Position numbers and translations under genes: made by a program. A stretch of 9,563 nt of DNA from a virus (Duplodnaviria; Heunggongvirae; Uroviricota; Caudoviricetes). The stretch lies in IMG/VR virus record IMGVR_UViG_2703718802_000013, positions 1-9,563 of that record; one strand, written 5' to 3'. Every line of letters begins with the position of its first letter. Position 1 is the first letter of the stretch. Below, one piece after another: positions 211 through 9,250 of the stretch. Below the pieces are notes generated by a model. That model was not told where the DNA came from. It searched no databases and saw nothing but the letters and a program-made list of their open reading frames with translations.

Positions 211-287
211 GGGGAACATATGACACATAAAACAAAGGCGACCTGGGGCGGTCGCCAATGGGAAAACACTAAACATAAGCCCGAACA

Positions 288-503
288 TCATAGCGATTTG
301 CTGGCTGGTGGGCAATTATCTTGCTTGTTGGGGCCGTATTGTGCTGCCATTTTCATCCGTTCAGAACGTGAATATTTTTTTAGAAACTCATCAAGGACAA
401 AAGCGCATGGTGCGAATCTTTCTGATTCATGCTCTGGCGCCATATTTTCGTGCTCTCTGTCCGTTTTTTGCGATGGTGTATTGGTTGATTCTTTGTTGGT
501 CAT
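288..503 (-). CDS. small hypothetical protein (71 aa), partner gene of RHH cassette 1; paralog of 954-1181
   Basis: Track ORF starting MTN. Its C-terminal region (FVLDEFLKKYSRSER) resembles that of the 954-1181 product (FALEDFVDKYPRRLK). It sits 57 nt downstream, on the minus strand, of the RHH gene 561-734, and the intergenic element is conserved with the one before 954-1181. The SD is weak. Confidence 0.4.
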   Translation of the reverse strand: MTNKESTNTPSQKTDREHENMAPEHESERFAPCAFVLDEFLKKYSRSERMKMAAQYGPNKQDNCPPASKSL

Positions 504-560
504 TGTGTGTACCTGTAAAGCAATGCGCCGTAGTACCTCACGCCACGGCGCTGATGTTTT

Positions 561-734
561 TTATCCTTTGGGTTCAATACCGCGTTGCTGTAATTCTTTT
601 CGGAGTACTCGCTTGATCCAGGTGGCTAAAGAAGTGTCACCGTCTGCTTTCGCTGCCTCTTCAAGTTGTGCTCTGAATTCTTCTGGTAGCCGCATTTGGT
701 ATGGAGGCGATCGCTTTTCCAATGGTGTTGACAT
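561..734 (-). CDS. ribbon-helix-helix (Arc/MetJ-like) DNA-binding protein, 57 aa
   Basis: Not in the ORF track because it is under 60 aa. My minus-strand translation is MSTPLEKRSPPYQMRLPEEFRAQLEEAAKADGDTSLATWIKRVLRKELQQRGIEPKG. The beta-strand then two-helix pattern (YQMRLPEEF...LATWIKRVLRKEL) resembles Arc-type repressors. The start codon overlaps a palindromic operator. Confidence 0.5.
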   Translation of the reverse strand: MSTPLEKRSPPYQMRLPEEFRAQLEEAAKADGDTSLATWIKRVLRKELQQRGIEPKG

Positions 735-776
735 GGTAATTACCCTTAATTACTATAGTTACATGGTAATTACCAT
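733..776. promoter_or_regulatory. two copies of a palindromic operator-like site (ATGGTAATTACC at 733-744; perfect 14-bp palindrome ATGGTAATTACCAT at 763-776)
   Basis: Read directly from the sequence. GGTAATTACC is self-complementary. The two copies are 30 bp apart and overlap the start codon and presumptive promoter of the minus-strand RHH gene 561-734. Confidence 0.45.
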
Positions 777-792
777 TGTACTTACCGTTATA

Positions 793-834
793 CAAAAAAC
801 AACGCCCCGCAGTGGTGGCTCACATACGGGGCGT
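793..834 (-). terminator. hairpin (ACGCCCCG / CGGGGCGT, 8-bp stem) followed by a T-run on the minus strand
   Basis: Stem arms at 802-809 and 827-834 with a 17-nt loop. The plus-strand A-run 794-800 reads as a T-run on the minus strand. It lies downstream of minus-strand gene 954-1181. It could instead be an RNA structural element of the duplicated module. Confidence 0.4.
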
Positions 835-865
835 CTAACCAAACCATTAATTGAGGTAACGATTA

Positions 866-920
866 TGGCTATAAAAGAGCATAGCTTACTCTTTATACAC
901 ACACAAACGCCCCGGAAACG
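866..920 (+). pseudogene. 5' remnant of an Icd-like gene (first ~18 codons only)
   Basis: ATG at 866 with a GAGG RBS. The translation MAIKEHSLLFIHTQT parallels MVAVNHIPHLVHTQT at the start of the Icd-like gene 1604-1801. Homology is lost after about 55 nt and no FVWRF or TEREAR motif follows. Confidence 0.3.
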
Positions 921-953
921 GAATAATCCGTTTCATAGTTCGGTTTTGTGCAC

Positions 954-1181
954 TCATCCTGGCGGTCGGTTTTTGCCGGATTTAAGCCGCCGTGGGTATT
1001 TATCGACAAAATCTTCAAGGGCAAATTTTTCTGGTGGCATTAAGCGCGGCGCTGGTGGTGGTATTTTTGTTCTGGTTAGTTCTTCCTCAACTCTGGCGCA
1101 GGCTTCTGACTGCCTTTGCCGGATGATTTCATCATCTTGCGTTTGCGTGTCTTGTATTGGTGATAGTGTGTTGTTGGTCAT
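954..1181 (-). CDS. small hypothetical protein (75 aa), partner gene of RHH cassette 2; paralog of 288-503
   Basis: Track ORF starting MTN. It lies directly downstream, on the minus strand, of RHH-like gene 1239-1418, separated by a conserved ~50 bp element that contains a hairpin. Confidence 0.4.
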   Translation of the reverse strand: MTNNTLSPIQDTQTQDDEIIRQRQSEACARVEEELTRTKIPPPAPRLMPPEKFALEDFVDKYPRRLKSGKNRPPG

Positions 1182-1238
1182 GATACTGCCCTGTAAAGTA
1201 ATGCGCCATAGTACCTCACGCCACGGCGCTGATAGTGA

Positions 1239-1418
1239 TTATTCTGATTCTTTGGCCTTGCGACGCTGGCGGCGTTTGATTTCGCCGCGCATGGCAGTAA
1301 CGATAAATTGTGCGTCTGTTTCGTTTTCTTCTTTTACCAAATTCATTTCGCTTAAAACGTCTAGAGGTACTCTAGCAGTTTTTTGTTGTGACTTGTTGTT
1401 GGTTGTACCTGTTGGCAT
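1239..1418 (-). CDS. small DNA-binding protein, probably ribbon-helix-helix (59 aa)
   Basis: Shares the track ORF 1239-1586 frame, but I start it at the internal ATG at 1418, which is preceded by a strong SD (minus-strand AGGAGAACAGAG then ATG). The product MPTGTTNNKSQQKTARVPLDVLSEMNLVKEENETDAQFIVTAMRGEIKRRQRRKAKESE aligns loosely with the 561-734 RHH protein (RLPEEF...LATWIKRVLRKEL versus RVPLDV...AQFIVTAMRGEIKR). Confidence 0.45.
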   Translation of the reverse strand: MPTGTTNNKSQQKTARVPLDVLSEMNLVKEENETDAQFIVTAMRGEIKRRQRRKAKESE

Positions 1419-1484
1419 CTCTGTTCTCCTTACTGTTAGGTGGTGTTCAGTATACGGAGAAAAAAAAATAAAAAAAGACTTGAA

Positions 1485-1529
1485 GTGCAAGTCACCTAAA
1501 AGTAACCTAGATTTCAAGGTGACTTGCAC
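1485..1529. promoter_or_regulatory. perfect 13-bp inverted repeat GTGCAAGTCACCT - N19 - AGGTGACTTGCAC (operator-like) in the divergent intergenic region
   Basis: Read directly. It lies between the minus-strand RHH-like gene (start 1418) and the plus-strand Icd-like gene (start 1604). A TATACT -10-like hexamer for the minus-strand gene is at 1451-1456. Confidence 0.45.
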
Positions 1530-1530
1530 C

Positions 1531-1572
1531 AAAAAAACAACGCCCCACAGTGCTGGAACACATGCAGGGCGT
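1531..1572 (-). terminator. hairpin (ACGCCC / GGGCGT) with a minus-strand T-run; paralog of the 793-834 element
   Basis: Stem arms at 1540-1545 and 1567-1572. The plus-strand A-run 1531-1539 is a T-run on the minus strand. About 75 percent identical by eye to 793-834 and its flank. Function uncertain (terminator or RNA structure). Confidence 0.35.
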
Positions 1573-1603
1573 CTAACCACAAACACTATAGAGAGGTAAA
1601 TTT

Positions 1604-1801
1604 ATGGTTGCCGTAAATCATATACCACACCTTGTACACACACAAACTGCCTTTGTGTGGCGTTTTCTGGCACTGAGTGCCGGAGAATCTCAAATCATCC
1701 ACGTAACCGCCTGGACGGAACGCGAAGCGCGTAACCTTTGCCCGTCCGATTGTGTTGCTGTATACGCCGCCCGTATTCGCCAGGGGTCACATCATGCGTA
1801 A
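1604..1801 (+). CDS. Icd-like small protein (host cell division inhibitor Icd-like family), 65 aa
   Basis: Track ORF with RBS GAGAGG. The motifs FVWRF ... TEREAR ... AARIRQG match what I recall of the Icd-like proteins annotated in enterobacterial P4-like and PICI elements. Paralogous to 2088-2261. Confidence 0.5.
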   Translation: MVAVNHIPHLVHTQTAFVWRFLALSAGESQIIHVTAWTEREARNLCPSDCVAVYAARIRQGSHHA

Positions 1802-1988
1802 AAACCGCTTGCAAAAAATTATAACGGGGCTGTATGCTTCCCCCGTCGCCCACATGGCGACCGGGTTTAGCAGCCTGAATACTACAGCGGACAGCCGCTT
1901 ACATTCCGATATGCGGTTTTTTTGTGTCCGTAAGCCTACCCATACCCGCATTATGGCGGGGCGTAACGGGGGAGCCTTTGCGCTCGCT

Positions 1989-2081
1989 GGTTCCTGTAGT
2001 GCCAGTCTGCTAACCCTGTTACGTCTCGCCACCCCGTTTAGCAGCGTAGTAGCGAGACTCCTTAATTTCACTACAGGAGCC
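1989..2081 (+). promoter_or_regulatory. candidate antisense pairing pair: 1989-2003 (GGTTCCTGTAGTGCC) is complementary to the RBS region of the second Icd-like gene at 2068-2081 (TCACTACAGGAGCC)
   Basis: The reverse complement of 1989-2003 is GGCACTACAGGAACC, against ACTACAGGAGCC at the RBS: 12 contiguous pairs if one G-U wobble is allowed, covering the AGGAG SD. This resembles the seqB/seqC logic of P4 CI RNA and P1 c4 RNA. RNA boundaries are unknown. Confidence 0.3.
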
Positions 2082-2706: not shown

Positions 2707-3006
2707 ATGAAACTTAAATATTCTGGCTTAACTGCCAGTGGCAACACTCACCCTAAATTTACGCGCGGTGATATTTACCGCGACCAGTACGGCGGCACGG
2801 TAATGATTAAGGGCGTGGCGGGACGGTGCGTAACTTACCGCCGTGAAGGTTACGAATATGATTGCGTGATGCCTGTTTATCAGTTCCGGCGTGATTTTTC
2901 TCTGGTACAGACCGCGCCGCATAACGTGCCCACCAGCAGGGAGAAAGCACGCGCCAATATTCAGGAAATAAAAAAGATGCTTAACGTATTCAGGGGTAAA
3001 AAATGA
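2707..3006 (+). CDS. hypothetical protein (99 aa)
   Basis: Track ORF with RBS GGAGAA about 9 nt upstream. Its stop overlaps the start of the primase gene (3003), suggesting translational coupling. Confidence 0.45.
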   Translation: MKLKYSGLTASGNTHPKFTRGDIYRDQYGGTVMIKGVAGRCVTYRREGYEYDCVMPVYQFRRDFSLVQTAPHNVPTSREKARANIQEIKKMLNVFRGKK

Positions 3007-5147
3007 AACTGGCACCGAACGTAAAACAGCAGTCACGCGGCATAAAACACAAAGAAACAGAAGTCATTATTTTTGCGGGTAGTGATGCCTGGTCACACGC
3101 AAAACAATGGCAGGAACATGACGCGCGTATGGCCGGAGATAATGAGCCTCCTGTGTGGCTTGGGGAGCAGCAGTTATCCGAACTGGATAAGCTGCAAATT
3201 GTGCCGGAAGGCAGAAAATCAGTACGCATATTCAGGGCCGGACATCTTGAGCCAGTAATGATCAAGGCGATTGGTCAGAAACTGGCGGCGGCAGGCGTAC
3301 AGGATGCAAATTTTTACCCTGAGGGAATGCACGTTCAGAAGGTGGAGAACTGGCGCGAATATCTGGCCCGTGAGCGGCAGAATCTTTCTGATGGTCTGGT
3401 TATTGAGCTTCCGGTAAAGAAAAAAGATACCGGAAGTCATAGCGATGACGAATTAAAGCCACGCGTTGAAAGTCGCGCCGATGGTGTTTTCTGGGTAACG
3501 CCCAAAGTGGATAAGCAGTCAGGCGAAATTATCCGGCCTGAGACGTGGTTATGTTCTCCGCTTGAACTACTGGGAACGGGGACGATCGGTAAAGAGCATT
3601 ACCGCGTGATGCGCTGGAAAAAAACCGCAAACCATGAAGTCATCACAATGGCGATCCCGTGTGGTGGTATCGGCGACCGTGACGGCTGGCGGTTACTTAA
3701 AGATCACGGGCTGAACGTGACAACCAACGGCAAATACAGGGCAATCCTGGCGGACTGGATGCAGTTAAGCGGAAGCCATGAGGAATGGCAGTTAAGCACA
3801 ACAACGGGCTGGCATTTTGGCGCGTACATCATGCCGGACGGTTCGATCATTGGTGATTCTGAAAAACCGATCCTGTTTACCGGAAAAAGCGCCGCGATTA
3901 ACGGTTATTCCGTGGCGGGTACGGCGGAGGGCTGGCGCGAGAGTGTGGCGCGGCTGGCTGGCGGTAATGCCTCAATGATGCTGGGTGTGGCAACGTCACT
4001 GGCAGCGCCTTTAATTGGCCTTGTGGGTGCTGACGGCTTCGGGGTGCATCTTTTCGAACAGTCATCGGCAGGTAAGACCACCACGCAGAACATCGCATCA
4101 AGTTTATGGGGAGAGCCGGACGCGCAGCGGCTGACCTGGTACGGCACGGCGTTAGGTATTGCCAATGAGGCCGAGGCCCATAATGACGGGCTTTTACCAC
4201 TGGATGAGATAGGCCAGGCCGGAAATGCGCGGGAAGTGTCAACGTCTGCTTATACGCTGTTTAACGGTTCAGGGAAATTGCAGGGGGCGAAGGATGGCGG
4301 CAACAGGGAGATCAAACACTGGCGAACGGTGGCAATCAGCACCGGAGAAATGGACGTTGAGACATTCCTCAAAAGTGAGGGGATAAAAGTTAAGGCGGGG
4401 CAGCTTGTCCGACTGCTTAACGTTCCGATGGAAAAAGCCACGAAATTTCACGAATACAGCAACGGTAAGGAACATGCTGACGCGTTAAAGGATGCCTGGA
4501 CAGCAAATCACGGGGCGGCGGGTCGTGAGTGGGTTAAATGGCTGGCAGGCCACCAGCAGGAGGCAAAGGACACGGTAAGGGAATGCCGCGAACGGTGGCG
4601 CAACCTGATACCGGAGAGTTACGGCGAGCAGGTCCACCGCGTGGGTGAACGTTTCGCCATACTGGAGGCCGCGCTTGTGCTTTCCGGTCATGTAACTGGC
4701 TGGGTCGTGCAGGAATGCCGCGACGCGATACAGCATAACTTTAATGCCTGGGTGAAAGAGTTCGGTACGGGCAACAGGGAACACAGGCAGATTATTGAAC
4801 AGGCTGAGGCGTTTCTTGCGGCCTATGGCCTGAGCAGGTTCGCCCCTGTCAATTATGACCCTGCCAGCCTGCCGATTTCAGAACTGTACGGCTACAGGGA
4901 AAGCGACGGGCGTTATGACGAGCCTGTTTTGTTTTACGTGCTGCCGGAGCCGTTTAGCTCACATGTGGCGAAGGGATTTAACAAGGATGCCGTAGCAAAG
5001 ACCCTTCATGAAGCCGGAATGCTGAGAAAACCAGCCAGCGGGCGGGGATGGCAAATCAGGACACCACGACTAAAACACCTGAAAGGGGCGCGGCTAAGAG
5101 TGTATGGCCTTTTGCTGACGCAGGACCACGATGCTGAAAATGATTAA
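3003..5147 (+). CDS. satellite-type primase/replication initiator (P4 alpha-like or PICI Pri-Rep-like, with a P-loop NTPase motif)
   Basis: 714 aa track ORF with an AGGGG RBS. It contains a deviant Walker A-like motif (SSAGKTT, encoded around 4068-4090). Its size and its position just upstream of an iteron array match replication proteins of P4-like and PICI elements. The domain assignment (DUF927-like) is from memory, not a search. Confidence 0.65.
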   Translation: MKLAPNVKQQSRGIKHKETEVIIFAGSDAWSHAKQWQEHDARMAGDNEPPVWLGEQQLSELDKLQIVPEGRKSVRIFRAGHLEPVMIKAIGQKLAAAGVQDANFYPEGMHVQKVENWREYLARERQNLSDGLVIELPVKKKDTGSHSDDELKPRVESRADGVFWVTPKVDKQSGEIIRPETWLCSPLELLGTGTIGKEHYRVMRWKKTANHEVITMAIPCGGIGDRDGWRLLKDHGLNVTTNGKYRAILADWMQLSGSHEEWQLSTTTGWHFGAYIMPDGSIIGDSEKPILFTGKSAAINGYSVAGTAEGWRESVARLAGGNASMMLGVATSLAAPLIGLVGADGFGVHLFEQSSAGKTTTQNIASSLWGEPDAQRLTWYGTALGIANEAEAHNDGLLPLDEIGQAGNAREVSTSAYTLFNGSGKLQGAKDGGNREIKHWRTVAISTGEMDVETFLKSEGIKVKAGQLVRLLNVPMEKATKFHEYSNGKEHADALKDAWTANHGAAGREWVKWLAGHQQEAKDTVRECRERWRNLIPESYGEQVHRVGERFAILEAALVLSGHVTGWVVQECRDAIQHNFNAWVKEFGTGNREHRQIIEQAEAFLAAYGLSRFAPVNYDPASLPISELYGYRESDGRYDEPVLFYVLPEPFSSHVAKGFNKDAVAKTLHEAGMLRKPASGRGWQIRTPRLKHLKGARLRVYGLLLTQDHDAEND

Positions 5148-5172
5148 TCTCGCGTGTAGGAGGTAAAAATAT

Positions 5173-5474
5173 GTTGTCCCAGTCGTCCCAGTAAGCAACA
5201 AGCAATCGTAACACATTGAATTACATAAATTTCACTTACAAAAAGTGGGACAACAGCGGGACAACATTCAGGCATTTTGGGACAACATAGCGGCATTTTG
5301 GGACGACACGACACGTATTTTTTACCGTGCTGGAGGGTGGGACAACACAAAAACCCTCATGTCGTCCCAAAATCGCCTTATGTCGTCCCACTTTGTGGAG
5401 TATGTTTTTAATAAAATCAACAGGTTAACATTAAGTGGGACAACCGGGACAACTGGGACGACGTGTTTTGTATA
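5173..5474. repeat. iteron array (about 12 copies of GGGAC(A/G)AC in both orientations) with an adjacent AT-rich stretch; presumptive origin of replication
   Basis: Read directly. Plus-orientation copies are at 5247, 5258, 5279, 5300, 5339, 5447, 5456 and about 5465. Minus-orientation copies (GTTGTCCC or GTCGTCCC) are at 5173, 5182, 5361 and 5382. AT-rich TGTATATATATAC lies at 5477-5490. It is immediately downstream of the replication gene. Confidence 0.6.
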
Positions 5475-5502
5475 TATATACGAAAAAATCGAGATCTGAA
5501 CT

Positions 5503-5751
5503 ATGAAGTTAAACCGCAAACAACCACACTACCGCGCCATTGACCTTACAGAGCACTGGCTGAGAGTGGCGATAAAAATCATCGACCGCAACACGGTGGA
5601 AGGATACGCGAAAGCACATCCCGAACTGATAAGCGCATTCATGACCACAGCGGCGGCAAACTTTGCCACGCTGACAGAACGGGAGATTGCCGAAGCGGAA
5701 CAGGTAACAACCATCAACGTAAAAACCGGAGAGTCAGGCGATGATACATGA
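5503..5751 (+). CDS. hypothetical protein (82 aa)
   Basis: Track ORF following the iteron region. No recognisable motif. Confidence 0.45.
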   Translation: MKLNRKQPHYRAIDLTEHWLRVAIKIIDRNTVEGYAKAHPELISAFMTTAAANFATLTEREIAEAEQVTTINVKTGESGDDT

Positions 5752-7864: not shown

Positions 7865-8278
7865 ATGGCAACGAATGAAAGCATCATGGCGCTACCGCTG
7901 GCGAGTAAATTTAAAGCAGAAGCGCGGGCAATGGCTGACAGAGGTTTATCAACCTACGAGGCCGTATATCAACTCAACAAACTGGAAGAGCAGGACAAGC
8001 CGCGCGCTGATGCGATTATGGCGCTTCATGAACATAACGACTATCAGCCGCTGTTACGTGCAATGGCAAACGTGCCATGTATTAGCGTCGATAATGCTCG
8101 TGAAATCCTGAACATGACCATAGAGCAGGAGCGCCCAAAGGTTGCGCCGGAGCTTACCGCAGCCTTTGAAAACTTTATGGACATGCACAGCCCGAAAGCC
8201 GTATCACCCGGCATGGCATACGACGGCAGAAACCAGGGCGATGAAGGCGACGTCGATCGCATACTGAAAACCATCTGA
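7865..8278 (+). CDS. hypothetical protein (137 aa), last gene of the capsid operon
   Basis: Track ORF with RBS GGGGAA, followed directly by a terminator. I see no similarity to lambda FI, FII or W. Function unknown. Confidence 0.5.
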   Translation: MATNESIMALPLASKFKAEARAMADRGLSTYEAVYQLNKLEEQDKPRADAIMALHEHNDYQPLLRAMANVPCISVDNAREILNMTIEQERPKVAPELTAAFENFMDMHSPKAVSPGMAYDGRNQGDEGDVDRILKTI

Positions 8279-8307: not shown

Positions 8308-8470
8308 ACGGGTCCTTTCCGGCATATGGACCCGTTACGGGGCGGCGACCTCGCGGTTTTTCGCTATTTATGAGCTTTTTCAGGGTGGTGGTGGTGGTTT
8401 TGTTGTTTGCTCTATCTTTATGAATAAAAAGGGAAATATAAAACCAATACACCAACCTGAAACCTTAACT
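8308..8470 (+). other. lambda-type cohesive-end site cos1: cosQ-like flank, cosN (GGGCGGCGACCT at 8340-8351), and a divergent cosB-like region
   Basis: TTACGGGTCCTTTCCGG...GTTACG-GGGCGGCGACCT-CGCGGTTTTTCGCTATTTATGA closely matches the lambda right-end/left-end junction as I recall it (TTTACGGGTCCTTTCCGG...GGTTACG-GGGCGGCGACCT-CGCGGGTTTTCGCTATTTATGAAAATTTTCCGG). Beyond about 8375 it diverges from lambda cosB, with a (GGT)n tract at 8385-8398 and AT-rich sequence. Confidence 0.7.
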
Positions 8471-8484
8471 AAGTGGGGATATTG

Positions 8485-9027
8485 ATGAAATCGCACCTGA
8501 TGAACAAAAAAACTATGGCGCAAAGCTGCCGTGTAAGTGCGACAGCGTTCGACAAGTGGGGAGTGACTCCCGTTGAACGTAAAGGCCGCGAGGCTTTTTA
8601 CGATGTTGCCAGCGTGATAGACAATCGGGTAAGCAATGCAATTGACCAGGTTACAAACGACAAAGGCGATATCGACGATGATGAACTTTTACGCGTAAGA
8701 ATCCGATTACTGACGGCCCAGGCGGAGGCGCAGGAGCTTAAAAACGAGCGCGAACGCGGCGACGTGATTGATACAGGTTTTTGCCTGTACGCGCTTTCAA
8801 AGCTGGCGAGCCAGATTTCATCAATCATGGACAGCCTCCCGCTGACTATGCAAAGGAGCTTCCCACAGATTACCCCCGCCATGCTGGATAGGCTTAAAAG
8901 GGAAGTGGTTAAAGCCTGTAATGCCAGTGCCAGAGTTGCCGACAACCTCCCACAGATACTGGCTGATTACTTGAAAGAAACAACCGGAAACGTACCGGAA
9001 AAGTTGCTACAGAAGAAAGGCGAGTAA
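8485..9027 (+). CDS. terminase small subunit, lambda Nu1 family
   Basis: Same frame as track ORF 8473-9027. LTAQAEAQELKNERERGDVIDTGFCLYALSKLASQISSIMDSLPLTMQRSFP matches lambda Nu1 LTRAQADAQELKNARDSAEVVETAFCTFVLSRIAGEIASILDGLPLSVQRRFP, and the N-terminal NKK..wHTH region and C-terminal tail also align. I chose the ATG at 8485 (GGGGA SD); the ATG at 8500 is also possible. Confidence 0.75.
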   Translation: MKSHLMNKKTMAQSCRVSATAFDKWGVTPVERKGREAFYDVASVIDNRVSNAIDQVTNDKGDIDDDELLRVRIRLLTAQAEAQELKNERERGDVIDTGFCLYALSKLASQISSIMDSLPLTMQRSFPQITPAMLDRLKREVVKACNASARVADNLPQILADYLKETTGNVPEKLLQKKGE

Positions 9028-9119: not shown

Positions 9120-9250
9120 ATTTTCATTGTTAAACAGTCTGTTACAGAGAAGAAGAACGGATCTGACTTTTGCCGGAAAATTTTCATAAACAGATAAAAA
9201 CCGCGAGGTCGCCGCCCCGTAACGGGCCATAATTCCAGGAAGGACCCGAC
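9120..9250 (-). other. second lambda-type cos site (cos2) in inverted orientation: cosN reverse complement at 9205-9216, lambda-like cosB on the minus strand
   Basis: The minus strand reads GTTACG-GGGCGGCGACCT-CGCGGTTTTTATCTGTTTATGAAAATTTTCCGGCAAAAG...TCCGTTCTTCTTC. This matches recalled lambda cosB (CTATTTATGAAAATTTTCCGG...TCCGTTCTTCTTCG) better than cos1 does. The cosQ-like flank lies at 9217-9250 on the plus strand. Confidence 0.65.

What the first reader, a model, noticed from the sequence alone, without database searches (positions are those of the whole stretch)
5150..5500. Dense bidirectional iteron array immediately downstream of the primase gene
About 12 copies of GGGAC(A/G)AC or its complement occur in clusters (for example 5247/5258, 5447/5456/5465, inverted copies at 5173/5182 and 5361/5382) next to an AT-rich stretch (5477-5490). 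This is the expected structure for an origin recognised by the upstream replication protein, as in SaPI, PICI and P4 origins. A strong SD (TAGGAGGT) with ATG at 5171 opens a 7-codon micro-ORF (MLSQSSQ) overlapping the first iterons. This is probably incidental but could couple translation to origin access.
Basis: partly seen in the sequence, partly recalled or inferred. Interest (0 to 1): 0.45.

Follow-up and report, generated by a model that had tools for sequence, protein, structure and literature searches.

The report
Replication origin of an E. coli PICI
The repeat cluster is real and is almost certainly the replication origin of a phage-inducible chromosomal island (a phage satellite), read by the winged-helix tail of the helicase gene next to it; this kind of origin is already known, so the find is solid but ordinary.

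Summary
Observation confirmed. GGGACRAC occurs exactly 12 times, all within 5173-5462 (0.53 expected in the whole window). Three quoted positions are off by 10.

The window is an EcCICFT073-like Gram-negative PICI. The upstream 714-aa gene is a DUF927 helicase-initiator related to SaPIbov1 Rep and Cch. It has no recognisable primase domain.

In about 30 homologous loci the same layout follows the stop codon:
- 2-3 inverted sites
- an AT-rich spacer
- 4-5 phased direct sites
- 1-3 inverted sites
- a second AT-rich spacer
- 3 abutting direct sites
- a conserved TTTTGyTTATATATA box

The Shine-Dalgarno (SD)/ATG micro-ORF is incidental.

Verdict: a SaPI/PICI-type origin and a new member of a known kind. 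Function is inferred by comparison and has not been tested.

The parts
3003..5147 (+). rep: 714-aa helicase-initiator. It has three modules: an N-terminal alpha/beta module (aa 1-~140), a DUF927 MCM-like helicase core (aa ~171-600) and a C-terminal winged-helix domain (aa ~602-714).
   Evidence: Pfam DUF927 E 1e-48. PDB 8tch SaPIbov1 Rep E 9e-14 and 5dgk Cch; Foldseek gives the same two. NCBIfam gives a weak Cch1 hit. No primase domain was found.
4806..5144 (+). Codons for the C-terminal winged-helix domain of Rep, the proposed iteron reader.
4805..5461 (+). Specificity cassette: the Rep C-terminal domain plus the whole iteron array, exchanged as one block between otherwise near-identical islands.
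   Evidence: Window versus L041: 83-100% identity over 3485-4804 and 90-98% over 5462-5701, but only 22-53% over 4805-5461. L041 carries TAACCCGC iterons in the same layout.
5150..5170 (.). Left flanking box (TCGCGTGTAGGAGGTAAAAAT). This is the window's version of a family-wide CACATGTGAGG-AAAA element just outside the first iterons, and it contains the SD-like TAGGAGGT.
   Evidence: Related boxes sit at the same place in loci with unrelated iteron words. The GGAGG itself is not kept in the same-iteron relatives H13, H14 and L007.
5173..5190 (-). Iterons 1-2: abutting 9-mers GTTGTCCCA and GTCGTCCCA.
   Evidence: The same 2-3 abutting inverted sites lie 21-47 nt after the stop codon in most homologous loci.
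5191..5245 (.). AT-rich spacer 1 (candidate melting region).
   Evidence: GC 27.5% minimum. Second least stable 25-mer of the region. A spacer of ~55-65 bp is present family-wide.
5246..5346 (+). Iterons 3-7: direct TGGGACRAC copies starting at 5246, 5257, 5278, 5299 and 5338 (steps of 11, 21, 21 and 39 bp).
   Evidence: The 11/21/21 phasing is conserved in most homologous loci.
5361..5390 (-). Iterons 8-9: inverted, 21 bp apart.
5391..5435 (.). AT-rich spacer 2 (candidate melting region).
   Evidence: GC 27.5% minimum. Third least stable 25-mer.
5436..5462 (+). Iterons 10-12: three abutting direct 9-mers.
   Evidence: A terminal triple at a 9-bp step is present in most loci.
5466..5489 (.). 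Right flanking box TTTTGTATATATATACGAAAAAAT. It is conserved across the family whatever the iteron word or the downstream gene, and is the best candidate for a DNA-unwinding element (DUE).
   Evidence: Consensus (N2-4)TTTTGyTTATATATAcgAAAAA starts 2-4 nt after the last iteron in ~22 loci. Least stable 25-mer of the region, dG -24.4 against a window mean of -34.1, sd 3.3. No sigma-70-like promoter match.
5171..5194 (+). Seven-codon micro-ORF MLSQSSQ*. I judge it incidental.
   Evidence: The ATG is the CAT flank of the extended iteron TGGGACAACAT; the same ATG occurs at 5359 and 5380. The SD is degraded in H13 (GGCGG) and H14 (GGGGG) and absent in L007. No equivalent ORF exists in loci with other iteron words.

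Best explanation
Region 5148-5490 is the vegetative replication origin of an EcCICFT073-like phage-inducible chromosomal island.

Inferred mechanism: after induction and excision, the adjacent 714-aa Rep acts as a self-loading hexameric helicase-initiator of the SaPI Rep/Cch (DUF927) family. Its C-terminal winged-helix domains bind the twelve TGGGACRAC iterons.

The sites form two tandem units. Each unit has two inverted sites, an AT-rich spacer of about 50 bp and a set of direct sites. Fixed helical phasing (9-bp abutting sites at the ends, 11/21-bp steps in the middle) would let bound Rep distort and melt an adjacent AT-rich segment. The candidates are the two internal spacers or, more probably, the conserved TTTTGTATATATATA box at 5466-5489. 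The helicase rings would then load there.

Specificity lies in the pairing of C-terminal domain and iteron, which evolves and recombines as one cassette (4805-5461).

Shown here:
- the array and its statistics
- the homology of Rep
- the conserved layout
- purifying selection on the sites
- co-variation with the C-terminal domain and the cassette swap

Inferred: binding, melting, the site of melting, the stoichiometry and replication itself.
For: - Twelve exact sites occur, confined to 290 bp, against 0.53 expected.
- The Rep core is homologous to SaPIbov1 Rep (E 9e-14) and Cch. The literature describes these as self-loading initiator-helicases whose C-terminal winged helix binds 6-12 iterons immediately downstream of rep, around an AT-rich region (PMC9371898).
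- Homologous loci from Escherichia, Klebsiella, Citrobacter, Serratia, Pectobacterium, Rahnella, Erwinia and Pseudomonas, among others, keep the same layout and flanking boxes but use different words: GGGATAAG, TAACCCGC, TAACCCAC, TGAACCAAC, TGAACCACG, TGAACCGAC, TACCCGAC, TGGTACAAC, TGAGACAAC and TGAAACCAC. Exactly 12 sites are found in 16 of 27 loci.
- Iteron distance correlates with C-terminal domain distance: Mantel rho 0.64, p<=0.0005. The partial correlation controlling for the helicase core is 0.64. The core controlling for the C-terminal domain gives -0.26.
- The natural cassette swap between window and L041 is limited to 4805-5461.
- Iteron columns are 94% invariant against 36% for spacers (Fisher 7e-24).
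[quoted passage not shown] The EcCICFT073 rep-ori segment drove plasmid maintenance (PMC6092414).
- A closed circular 16-kb K. pneumoniae PICI, deposited as a plasmid with no other replication gene, has the same layout.
- cosN sites lie elsewhere, at 8340 and 9206.
Against: - No experiment has been done on this element or on any Gram-negative DUF927-type Rep. The tested E. coli replicon (EcCICFT073) uses a different helicase family, D5_N/DUF5906/Pox_D5.
- The full-length AF2 model is poor (pLDDT 53.5) and the C-terminal model is only moderate (73.8). The C-terminal domain has no sequence-level match in PDB or Pfam.
- The cassette comparison formally excludes only the Rep core and the downstream orf82 as readers. 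Other island genes also differ between the two loci.
- The protein has no recognisable primase, so how priming occurs is unknown.
- The melting site is not identified. There are three AT-rich candidates.
Confidence: 0.85

Rival explanations
1. The repeats are operator sites for a transcription regulator of the island (AlpA, PerC, an Icd/antirepressor-zone factor, or Rep acting only as an autorepressor). On this view they control the downstream orf82-perC-capsid operon and are not an origin.
For: The array lies in the 355-bp gap between rep and the next operon. Islands of this type are transcribed in one direction and need internal control points (PMC6092414). Iteron-binding initiators in plasmids often also autoregulate (general knowledge).
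Against: - No sigma-70-like promoter is found in 5000-5700.
- The array and its right-hand box keep their position relative to the rep stop codon, not relative to the next gene. That gene varies (orf82, SSB, others) and lies 330 to more than 1000 bp away.
- The word co-varies with the Rep C-terminal domain.
- orf82 is 93-98% identical in L041, whose iterons are completely different.
Confidence: 0.06
2. The array is bound by Rep but serves mainly for copy-number control, incompatibility or handcuffing, or as a helicase-loading accessory like P4 crr. The true start site would then lie elsewhere in the island.
For: P4 needs two separate iteron clusters, ori and crr (own knowledge; crr is named in PMC6092414). 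Twelve sites are more than minimal origins need.
Against: All 12 copies are in one cluster and none occurs elsewhere in the 9.5-kb window. In other loci, 0-3 stray core matches occur in about 10 kb. Conserved AT-rich elements are built into the array. SaPI origins of the same design are sufficient for replication (PMC9371898).
Confidence: 0.06
3. The array is a packaging signal: cosB/pac-like binding sites for the Nu1-like small terminase or Rpp (the PICI protein that redirects phage packaging).
For: The island encodes a Nu1-family protein. Lambda cosB consists of repeated R sites (own knowledge).
Against: Two exact lambda cosN 12-mers flank the Nu1-like gene at 8340-8351 and 9206-9217, about 3 kb away. 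This matches the cos1/cos2 arrangement of EcCICFT073 (PMC6739421). The same array layout occurs in a capsid-forming PICI (cf-PICI) with a P27-type terminase.
Confidence: 0.01
4. The SD/ATG micro-ORF (5171-5194) is translated, and ribosome traffic over the first iterons modulates access to the origin.
For: GGAGG lies 7 nt upstream of the ATG, an ideal spacing, and the ORF covers iterons 1-2.
Against: - The ATG is the flank of the iteron consensus and recurs at 5359 and 5380.
- The GGAGG is a local variant of a family-wide non-coding box.
- It is GGCGG in H13 and GGGGG in H14, and absent in L007, which has the same iterons.
- Loci with other words have no start codon or ORF there.
Confidence: 0.02

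Closest known systems
SaPI replicons (SaPIbov1/SaPI1/SaPI5 Rep plus ori) and the SCCmec Cch helicase
   Same: The helicase core is homologous (8tch E 9e-14, 5dgk). The C-terminal winged helix is structurally closest to the SaPIbov1 Rep chain. The origin lies immediately 3' of rep, with 6-12 short iterons in both orientations around AT-rich DNA (PMC9371898).
   Different: - This is a Gram-negative island with 9-bp words rather than penta- or hexanucleotides.
- It has two tandem iteron/AT-rich units instead of one central AT-rich region.
- It has a conserved terminal TTTTGyTTATATATA box and a conserved left box.
- No separate or fused primase is present in this 714-aa form.
- Sequence identity to SaPI Rep is only ~14% in the structural alignment.
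EcCICFT073 pri-rep-ori, the experimentally tested Gram-negative PICI replicon
   Same: - The island type and gene order are the same: DUF4222, rep, ori, PerC, capsid E, decoration D, orf, Nu1-like/Rpp, and two cos sites.
- Rep aa 1-140 match the EcCICFT073 Pri-Rep N-terminus (88% identity over the 163 aligned residues).
- The origin begins about 14-26 nt after the stop codon with two abutting inverted iterons followed by AT-rich DNA, and has ~11-12 sites.
   Different: The EcCICFT073 helicase is SF3, D5_N/DUF5906/Pox_D5, not DUF927. Its iteron word is GGTAGAYA. The detailed spacing differs and the TATATATA box is absent.
Satellite phage P4 alpha protein with ori and crr
   Same: One polypeptide combines origin recognition through a C-terminal DNA-binding domain with helicase activity. 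It uses octamer iterons (P4 type I TGTTCACC, from my own knowledge). P4 is also a satellite that replicates independently of the helper.
Iteron plasmids (pPS10, F, R6K, RK2 type)
   Same: Directly repeated initiator-binding sites lie next to an AT-rich unwinding element, and the initiator uses winged-helix DNA recognition.
   Different: Those initiators are not helicases. They rely on DnaA boxes and host DnaB/DnaC. No DnaA box occurs in this origin, and the initiator is itself the helicase.

Membership tests
SaPI/PICI-type replicon (self-loading Rep helicase-initiator with the origin 3' of rep) | The origin lies immediately downstream of the rep stop codon. | tested here: met
   The first iteron starts 26 nt after the stop codon at 5145-5147. 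The same holds in ~30 homologous loci.
SaPI/PICI-type replicon (self-loading Rep helicase-initiator with the origin 3' of rep) | Six to twelve short iterons, with at least two on each side of an AT-rich region pointing in opposite directions. | tested here: met
   There are 12 sites. Inverted pairs sit to the left and direct sets to the right of both AT-rich spacers, 5191-5245 and 5391-5435. The definition is from PMC9371898 and PMC6092414.
SaPI/PICI-type replicon (self-loading Rep helicase-initiator with the origin 3' of rep) | Rep belongs to the SaPI Rep/Cch (DUF927, MCM-like) helicase family. | tested here: met
   Pfam DUF927 1e-48. phmmer hits 8tch at 9e-14 and 5dgk at 4e-3. Foldseek finds only these two at E<1e-3.
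SaPI/PICI-type replicon (self-loading Rep helicase-initiator with the origin 3' of rep) | A C-terminal winged-helix domain determines iteron specificity. | tested here: met
SaPI/PICI-type replicon (self-loading Rep helicase-initiator with the origin 3' of rep) | Rep binds its cognate origin, and rep-ori drives autonomous replication. | not testable with these tools
   Only indirect support: a closed circular 16-kb PICI record with this layout and no other replication gene. Experiments exist for SaPIs and EcCICFT073 only.
Gram-negative PICI (EcCICFT073-like island) | Unidirectional int-alpA-...-rep-ori-late gene order, island size 10-20 kb, helper cos sites. | tested here: met
   A near-identical island of ~11 kb lies in E. 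coli caiT with an integrase and an HTH (helix-turn-helix) regulator. The gene order matches EcCICFT073. Two exact cosN sites are present. The integrase itself lies outside the window.
EcCICFT073-type Pri-Rep (D5/SF3 primase-helicase) | D5_N, DUF5906 and Pox_D5 helicase domains. | tested here: not met
   The window protein has DUF927 only. EcCICFT073 Pri-Rep has D5_N/DUF5906/Pox_D5. Only aa 1-140 are shared.
P4 alpha / ori-crr system | A primase plus D5-type helicase polypeptide, and two separate iteron clusters (ori and crr). | tested here: not met
DnaG-type primase-helicase fusion (Zn-ribbon + Toprim + DUF927) | Zn_Ribbon_Prim and Toprim domains N-terminal to the helicase. | tested here: not met
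   Both are absent from the window protein even at E<=10. The N-terminal model (pLDDT ~85) gives only weak flavodoxin/REC-like matches. Both domains are present in the ~900-aa relatives L010, L013 and L019.
Classical iteron plasmid origin | DnaA boxes, and an initiator that recruits the host DnaB. | tested here: not met
   No TTWTNCACA occurs in 5100-5560; the single window match is at 893. The initiator carries its own helicase.

The most novel reading that the evidence does not exclude
The DUF927-type PICI origins follow a strict, previously undescribed layout. There is a modal count of exactly twelve sites: two outward-facing abutting sets at the ends, plus helically phased inner sets.

Twelve would match the twelve winged-helix domains of two Rep hexamers. 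On this reading the array is a stoichiometric double-hexamer loading platform. Melting would occur not in a central AT-rich region, as proposed for SaPIs, but at the sequence-conserved terminal box TTTTGyTTATATATA (5466-5489), with the CACATGTGAGG-AAAA box marking the other end.

Because the C-terminal domain and the word are exchanged as a cassette, the family would also offer a natural, readable recognition code for a helicase-borne winged helix.
Probability: 0.2. Interest if true: 0.5.

Novelty: new member of a known kind. Interest (0 to 1): 0.3.

Why it matters
The result fixes the origin and the specificity module of a common E. coli phage satellite. About 2,000 of 5,426 complete E. coli genomes carry DNA related to this rep gene.

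It also shows that the gene called a primase is really a SaPI-Rep-like helicase-initiator without a primase domain.

The family-wide comparison gives more than ten matched pairs of C-terminal domain and iteron word, plus a natural cassette swap. This is a ready-made design for origin-specificity and incompatibility experiments, and for engineering orthogonal PICI vectors.

It does not reveal a new kind of biological system.

Tried and rejected
- A full-text search for the word GGGACAAC returned only unrelated primer hits. The supplements of PMC6092414 do not contain the word, so I could not tell whether this exact origin is drawn in that paper's Fig. 2a.
- A homology search with the C-terminal domain alone returned only short fragments.
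- A profile of 35 C-terminal domains against PDB sequences found nothing meaningful. Pfam at E<=10 found nothing for the N- or C-terminal segments.
- The full-length AF2 model was poor outside aa 1-130, so only the separate C-terminal model was used for fold comparison.
- Rfam found no RNA family in the origin. The only hit is C4 at 1949-2036.
- The promoter scan found no sigma-70-like site, and only two weak terminator-like hairpins lie outside the array.
- There is no DnaA box in the origin.
- PADLOC and NCBIfam gave nothing for the flanking unknown ORFs.
- I considered and rejected the array as a cos/pac site (cosN lies elsewhere), as a chance cluster, and as coding sequence. The overlapping ORFs 5245-5499 (+), 5144-5350 (-) and others are by-products of the repeats, and the spacers are not conserved.

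Full report
**1. Observation**

The motif GGGACRAC occurs 12 times on the two strands of the 9563-bp window. Every copy lies between 5173 and 5462. Dinucleotide-preserving shuffles give a mean of 0.53 and a maximum of 3. The longer word is TGGGACRAC.

The layout:

| Element | Coordinates |
|---|---|
| Two abutting 9-mers, minus strand | 5173-5190 |
| AT-rich spacer | 5191-5245 |
| Five direct copies (steps 11, 21, 21, 39 bp) | start 5246, 5257, 5278, 5299, 5338 |
| Two inverted copies, 21 bp apart | 5361 and 5382 |
| Second AT-rich spacer | 5391-5435 |
| Three abutting direct 9-mers | 5436-5462 |
| TTTTGTATATATATACGAAAAAAT | 5466-5489 |

The next ORF starts at 5503.

The AT-rich tract is longer than stated, and there are two more. 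The three are the least stable 25-mers of the region, with 5466-5490 the weakest. The SD-like TAGGAGGT, the ATG at 5171 and the ORF MLSQSSQ* are present.

**2. Context**

The window is a Gram-negative phage-inducible chromosomal island. A 99.6% identical copy of the region lies in an ~11-kb island inserted in caiT of E. coli 94-3024. That island carries an integrase, an HTH regulator, Ash, Icd-like, DUF4222, the DUF927 protein, orf82, PerC, major capsid protein, decoration protein, a hypothetical protein and a small terminase.

The downstream gene order is the same as in EcCICFT073, the model E. coli PICI. The window also has two exact lambda cosN 12-mers flanking the Nu1-like gene, like cos1/cos2 of EcCICFT073 (PMC6739421).

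**3. The upstream gene is a helicase-initiator, not a recognisable primase**

The 714-aa product has only a DUF927 domain in Pfam. It matches SaPIbov1 Rep (8tch, E 9e-14) and the SCCmec helicase Cch (5dgk) by sequence, and matches only these two by fold. NCBIfam gives a weak Cch1 hit.

No Zn-ribbon, Toprim or other primase domain is detected, even at E<=10 on the N-terminal 170 residues. The confidently modelled N-terminal alpha/beta domain (pLDDT ~85) gives only weak flavodoxin/REC-like matches.

About 900-aa relatives do carry Zn_Ribbon_Prim plus Toprim_3 ahead of DUF927, which explains the PHROG label 'DNA primase'.

Residues 1-140 of the window's Rep match the N-terminus of EcCICFT073 Pri-Rep (88% identity over the 163 aligned residues). 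The rest of that protein is an unrelated D5-type helicase. The same N-terminal module is joined to 'DNA primase family', DUF5906 and RepA-type proteins in other E. coli islands. Rep is therefore a three-module mosaic.

**4. Comparative test of the array**

I collected 39 genomic loci encoding homologues plus four E. coli loci found by exact protein look-up. Nearly every locus with sufficient downstream sequence has 7-14 copies of one 7-9-bp word within ~450 bp after the rep stop, and almost none elsewhere in ~10 kb.

The layout is conserved:

- 2-3 abutting inverted sites, 21-47 nt after the stop
- a spacer of ~55-65 bp
- 4-5 direct sites at +11/+21/+21
- 1-3 inverted sites
- a spacer of ~50 bp
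- three abutting direct sites

Exactly 12 sites (at most 1 mismatch) occur in 16 of 27 loci. The count is 18 if isolated distal matches in two loci are discounted.

The word is lineage-specific: GGGACAAC, GGGACAAG, GGGATAAG, TAACCCGC, TAACCCAC, TGAACCAAC, TGAACCACG, TGAACCGAC, TACCCGAC, GACCCGAC, TGGTACAAC, TGAGACAAC and TGAAACCAC.

Two flanking boxes are conserved whatever the word:

- (N2-4)TTTTGyTTATATATAcgAAAAA lies just beyond the last site. It keeps this position whatever the downstream gene and however far away that gene is.
- A CACATGTGAGG-AAAA-like box lies just before the first site.

**5. What reads the word**

Protein alignments show that the last ~112 residues fall into discrete types while the core stays similar.

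- Iteron distance correlates with C-terminal distance: Mantel rho 0.64, p<=0.0005.
- The partial correlation controlling for the helicase core is 0.64.
- The core controlling for the C-terminal domain gives -0.26.

The clearest case is E. coli locus L041. Against the window it is 83-100% identical over 3485-4804 and 90-98% over 5462-5701, but only 22-53% over 4805-5461. That interval is exactly the Rep C-terminal domain plus the whole array, and L041 has 14 TAACCCGC sites in the same layout. The downstream orf82 and the TATATATA box are unchanged, so they do not specify the word.

- The short (~700 aa) and long (~900 aa, Toprim-bearing) forms share TGAACCAAC when they share the C-terminal type.
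- EcCICFT073 shares the N-terminal module but uses GGTAGAYA.

Among four loci with the GGGACRAC word, iteron columns are 94% invariant against 36% for the remaining columns (Fisher 7e-24). The E. albertii relative has changed all six remaining copies to GGGACAAG.

**6. Fold of the C-terminal domain**

There is no sequence-level match in Pfam or PDB. An AF2 model of aa 585-714 built on 46 sequences has pLDDT 73.8 and pTM 0.66.

SaPI Reps are reported to recognise their iterons through a C-terminal winged helix. They are reported to have 6-12 iterons directly downstream of rep around an AT-rich region, and are thought to load two hexamers (PMC9371898).

**7. Mechanism**

Best-supported: this is the island's origin. 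Rep hexamers bind the twelve sites through their winged helices. The phased array bends or wraps the DNA, an adjacent AT-rich element melts, and the helicase self-loads.

- Shown: the array, the homology, the conserved layout, selection on the sites and co-variation.
- Inferred: binding, melting, stoichiometry and replication.

I favour the 5466-5489 box as the unwinding element for two reasons. It is conserved in sequence across the family, and it is the least stable segment. The two internal spacers are the alternatives and correspond better to the SaPI model.

The absence of a primase domain leaves priming unexplained. Host DnaG is the obvious guess, and I did not test it.

**8. Rivals**

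- **Operator array for downstream transcription.** This is unlikely. There is no promoter match. The array is positioned relative to rep, not to the variable downstream gene. The word co-varies with the Rep tail.
- **Packaging site.** This is excluded in practice by the cosN sites ~3 kb away.
- **Accessory or copy-control role only.** This cannot be excluded, but nothing suggests a second cluster.
- **The micro-ORF.** The ATG is the CAT flank of the extended iteron and recurs at 5359 and 5380. The GGAGG is a local variant of the family-wide left box. It is GGCGG in H13, GGGGG in H14 and absent in L007. There is no equivalent ORF in loci with other words.

**9. Comparison with known systems and novelty**

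Fillol-Salom et al. [quoted passage not shown] They showed that the EcCICFT073 rep-ori segment maintains a plasmid (PMC6092414). The present array is a member of that known kind.

It belongs to the DUF927 (SaPI-Rep-like) allele rather than the tested D5-type allele. It is not a P4-type or iteron-plasmid origin (see the membership table).

Details I did not find described in the papers I read are:

- the fixed 12-site layout
- the conserved terminal boxes
- the clean cassette of C-terminal domain plus array
- the lack of a primase domain in this form

A closed circular 16-kb K. pneumoniae capsid-forming PICI, deposited as a plasmid, carries the same layout. This is consistent with episomal replication but does not prove it.

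**10. Verdict**

This is a new member of a known kind. Interest is modest (0.3). The comparative data set is a useful resource for specificity experiments.

Noticed in passing
window 1949-2036 (+), next to 1604-1801 (+): An Rfam C4 antisense RNA (72 bits, gathering score 45) lies just downstream of a 65-aa Icd-like ORF (NCBIfam phage_ICD_like). This is a P1/P7-type C4-icd immunity-like module inside the island.
   Followed up: no
window 8340-8351 (+) and 9206-9217 (-): Two exact copies of the lambda cosN 12-mer GGGCGGCGACCT lie in inverted orientation, flanking the Nu1-like (probably Rpp-type) gene 8473-9027. This resembles cos1/cos2 of EcCICFT073.
   Followed up: partly
window 220-1599 (+): A 459-aa ORF has no hit in Pfam, PHROGs, PADLOC or NCBIfam. 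The near-identical island L001 has a different gene set at this position, upstream of the Icd-like ORF. It is a possible accessory or defence cargo gene.
   Followed up: partly
window 3003-3425 (Rep aa 1-140): The N-terminal alpha/beta module of Rep matches the N-terminus of the EcCICFT073 Pri-Rep (88% identity over the 163 aligned residues). In other E. coli islands its DNA is fused to 'DNA primase family', DUF5906 and RepA-type helicases at 72-97% nucleotide identity. It is a shuffled module of unknown function with no primase motifs.
   Followed up: partly
L002 6137-6380 (Escherichia albertii): The origin is truncated after the fourth direct site. Only 6 sites remain, all changed to GGGACAAG, and the right half and the TATATATA box are missing. 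The origin is possibly defective or remodelled.
   Followed up: no
L003, about +151 to +320 after the rep stop: An extra ~170 bp separates the fourth and fifth direct iterons in an otherwise canonical 12-site TGAACCAAC array. This looks like an insertion inside the origin.
   Followed up: no
L049 (NZ_CP069874.1) and L050 (NZ_CP148430.1): Two records deposited as plasmids (16.0 and 12.2 kb, closed circles) are whole PICIs with an integrase, a DUF927 Rep and no plasmid replicon; L049 also has AlpA. L049 is a capsid-forming PICI with the full 12-site layout. L050 has only the left half.
   Followed up: partly
window 7865-8278 (+): The 137-aa ORF after the decoration gene matches phrog_1999 (unknown function) and, weakly, the C-terminal part of a head maturation protease family (phrog_53, 1.5e-9). 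It is possibly a scaffold-like fragment.
   Followed up: no
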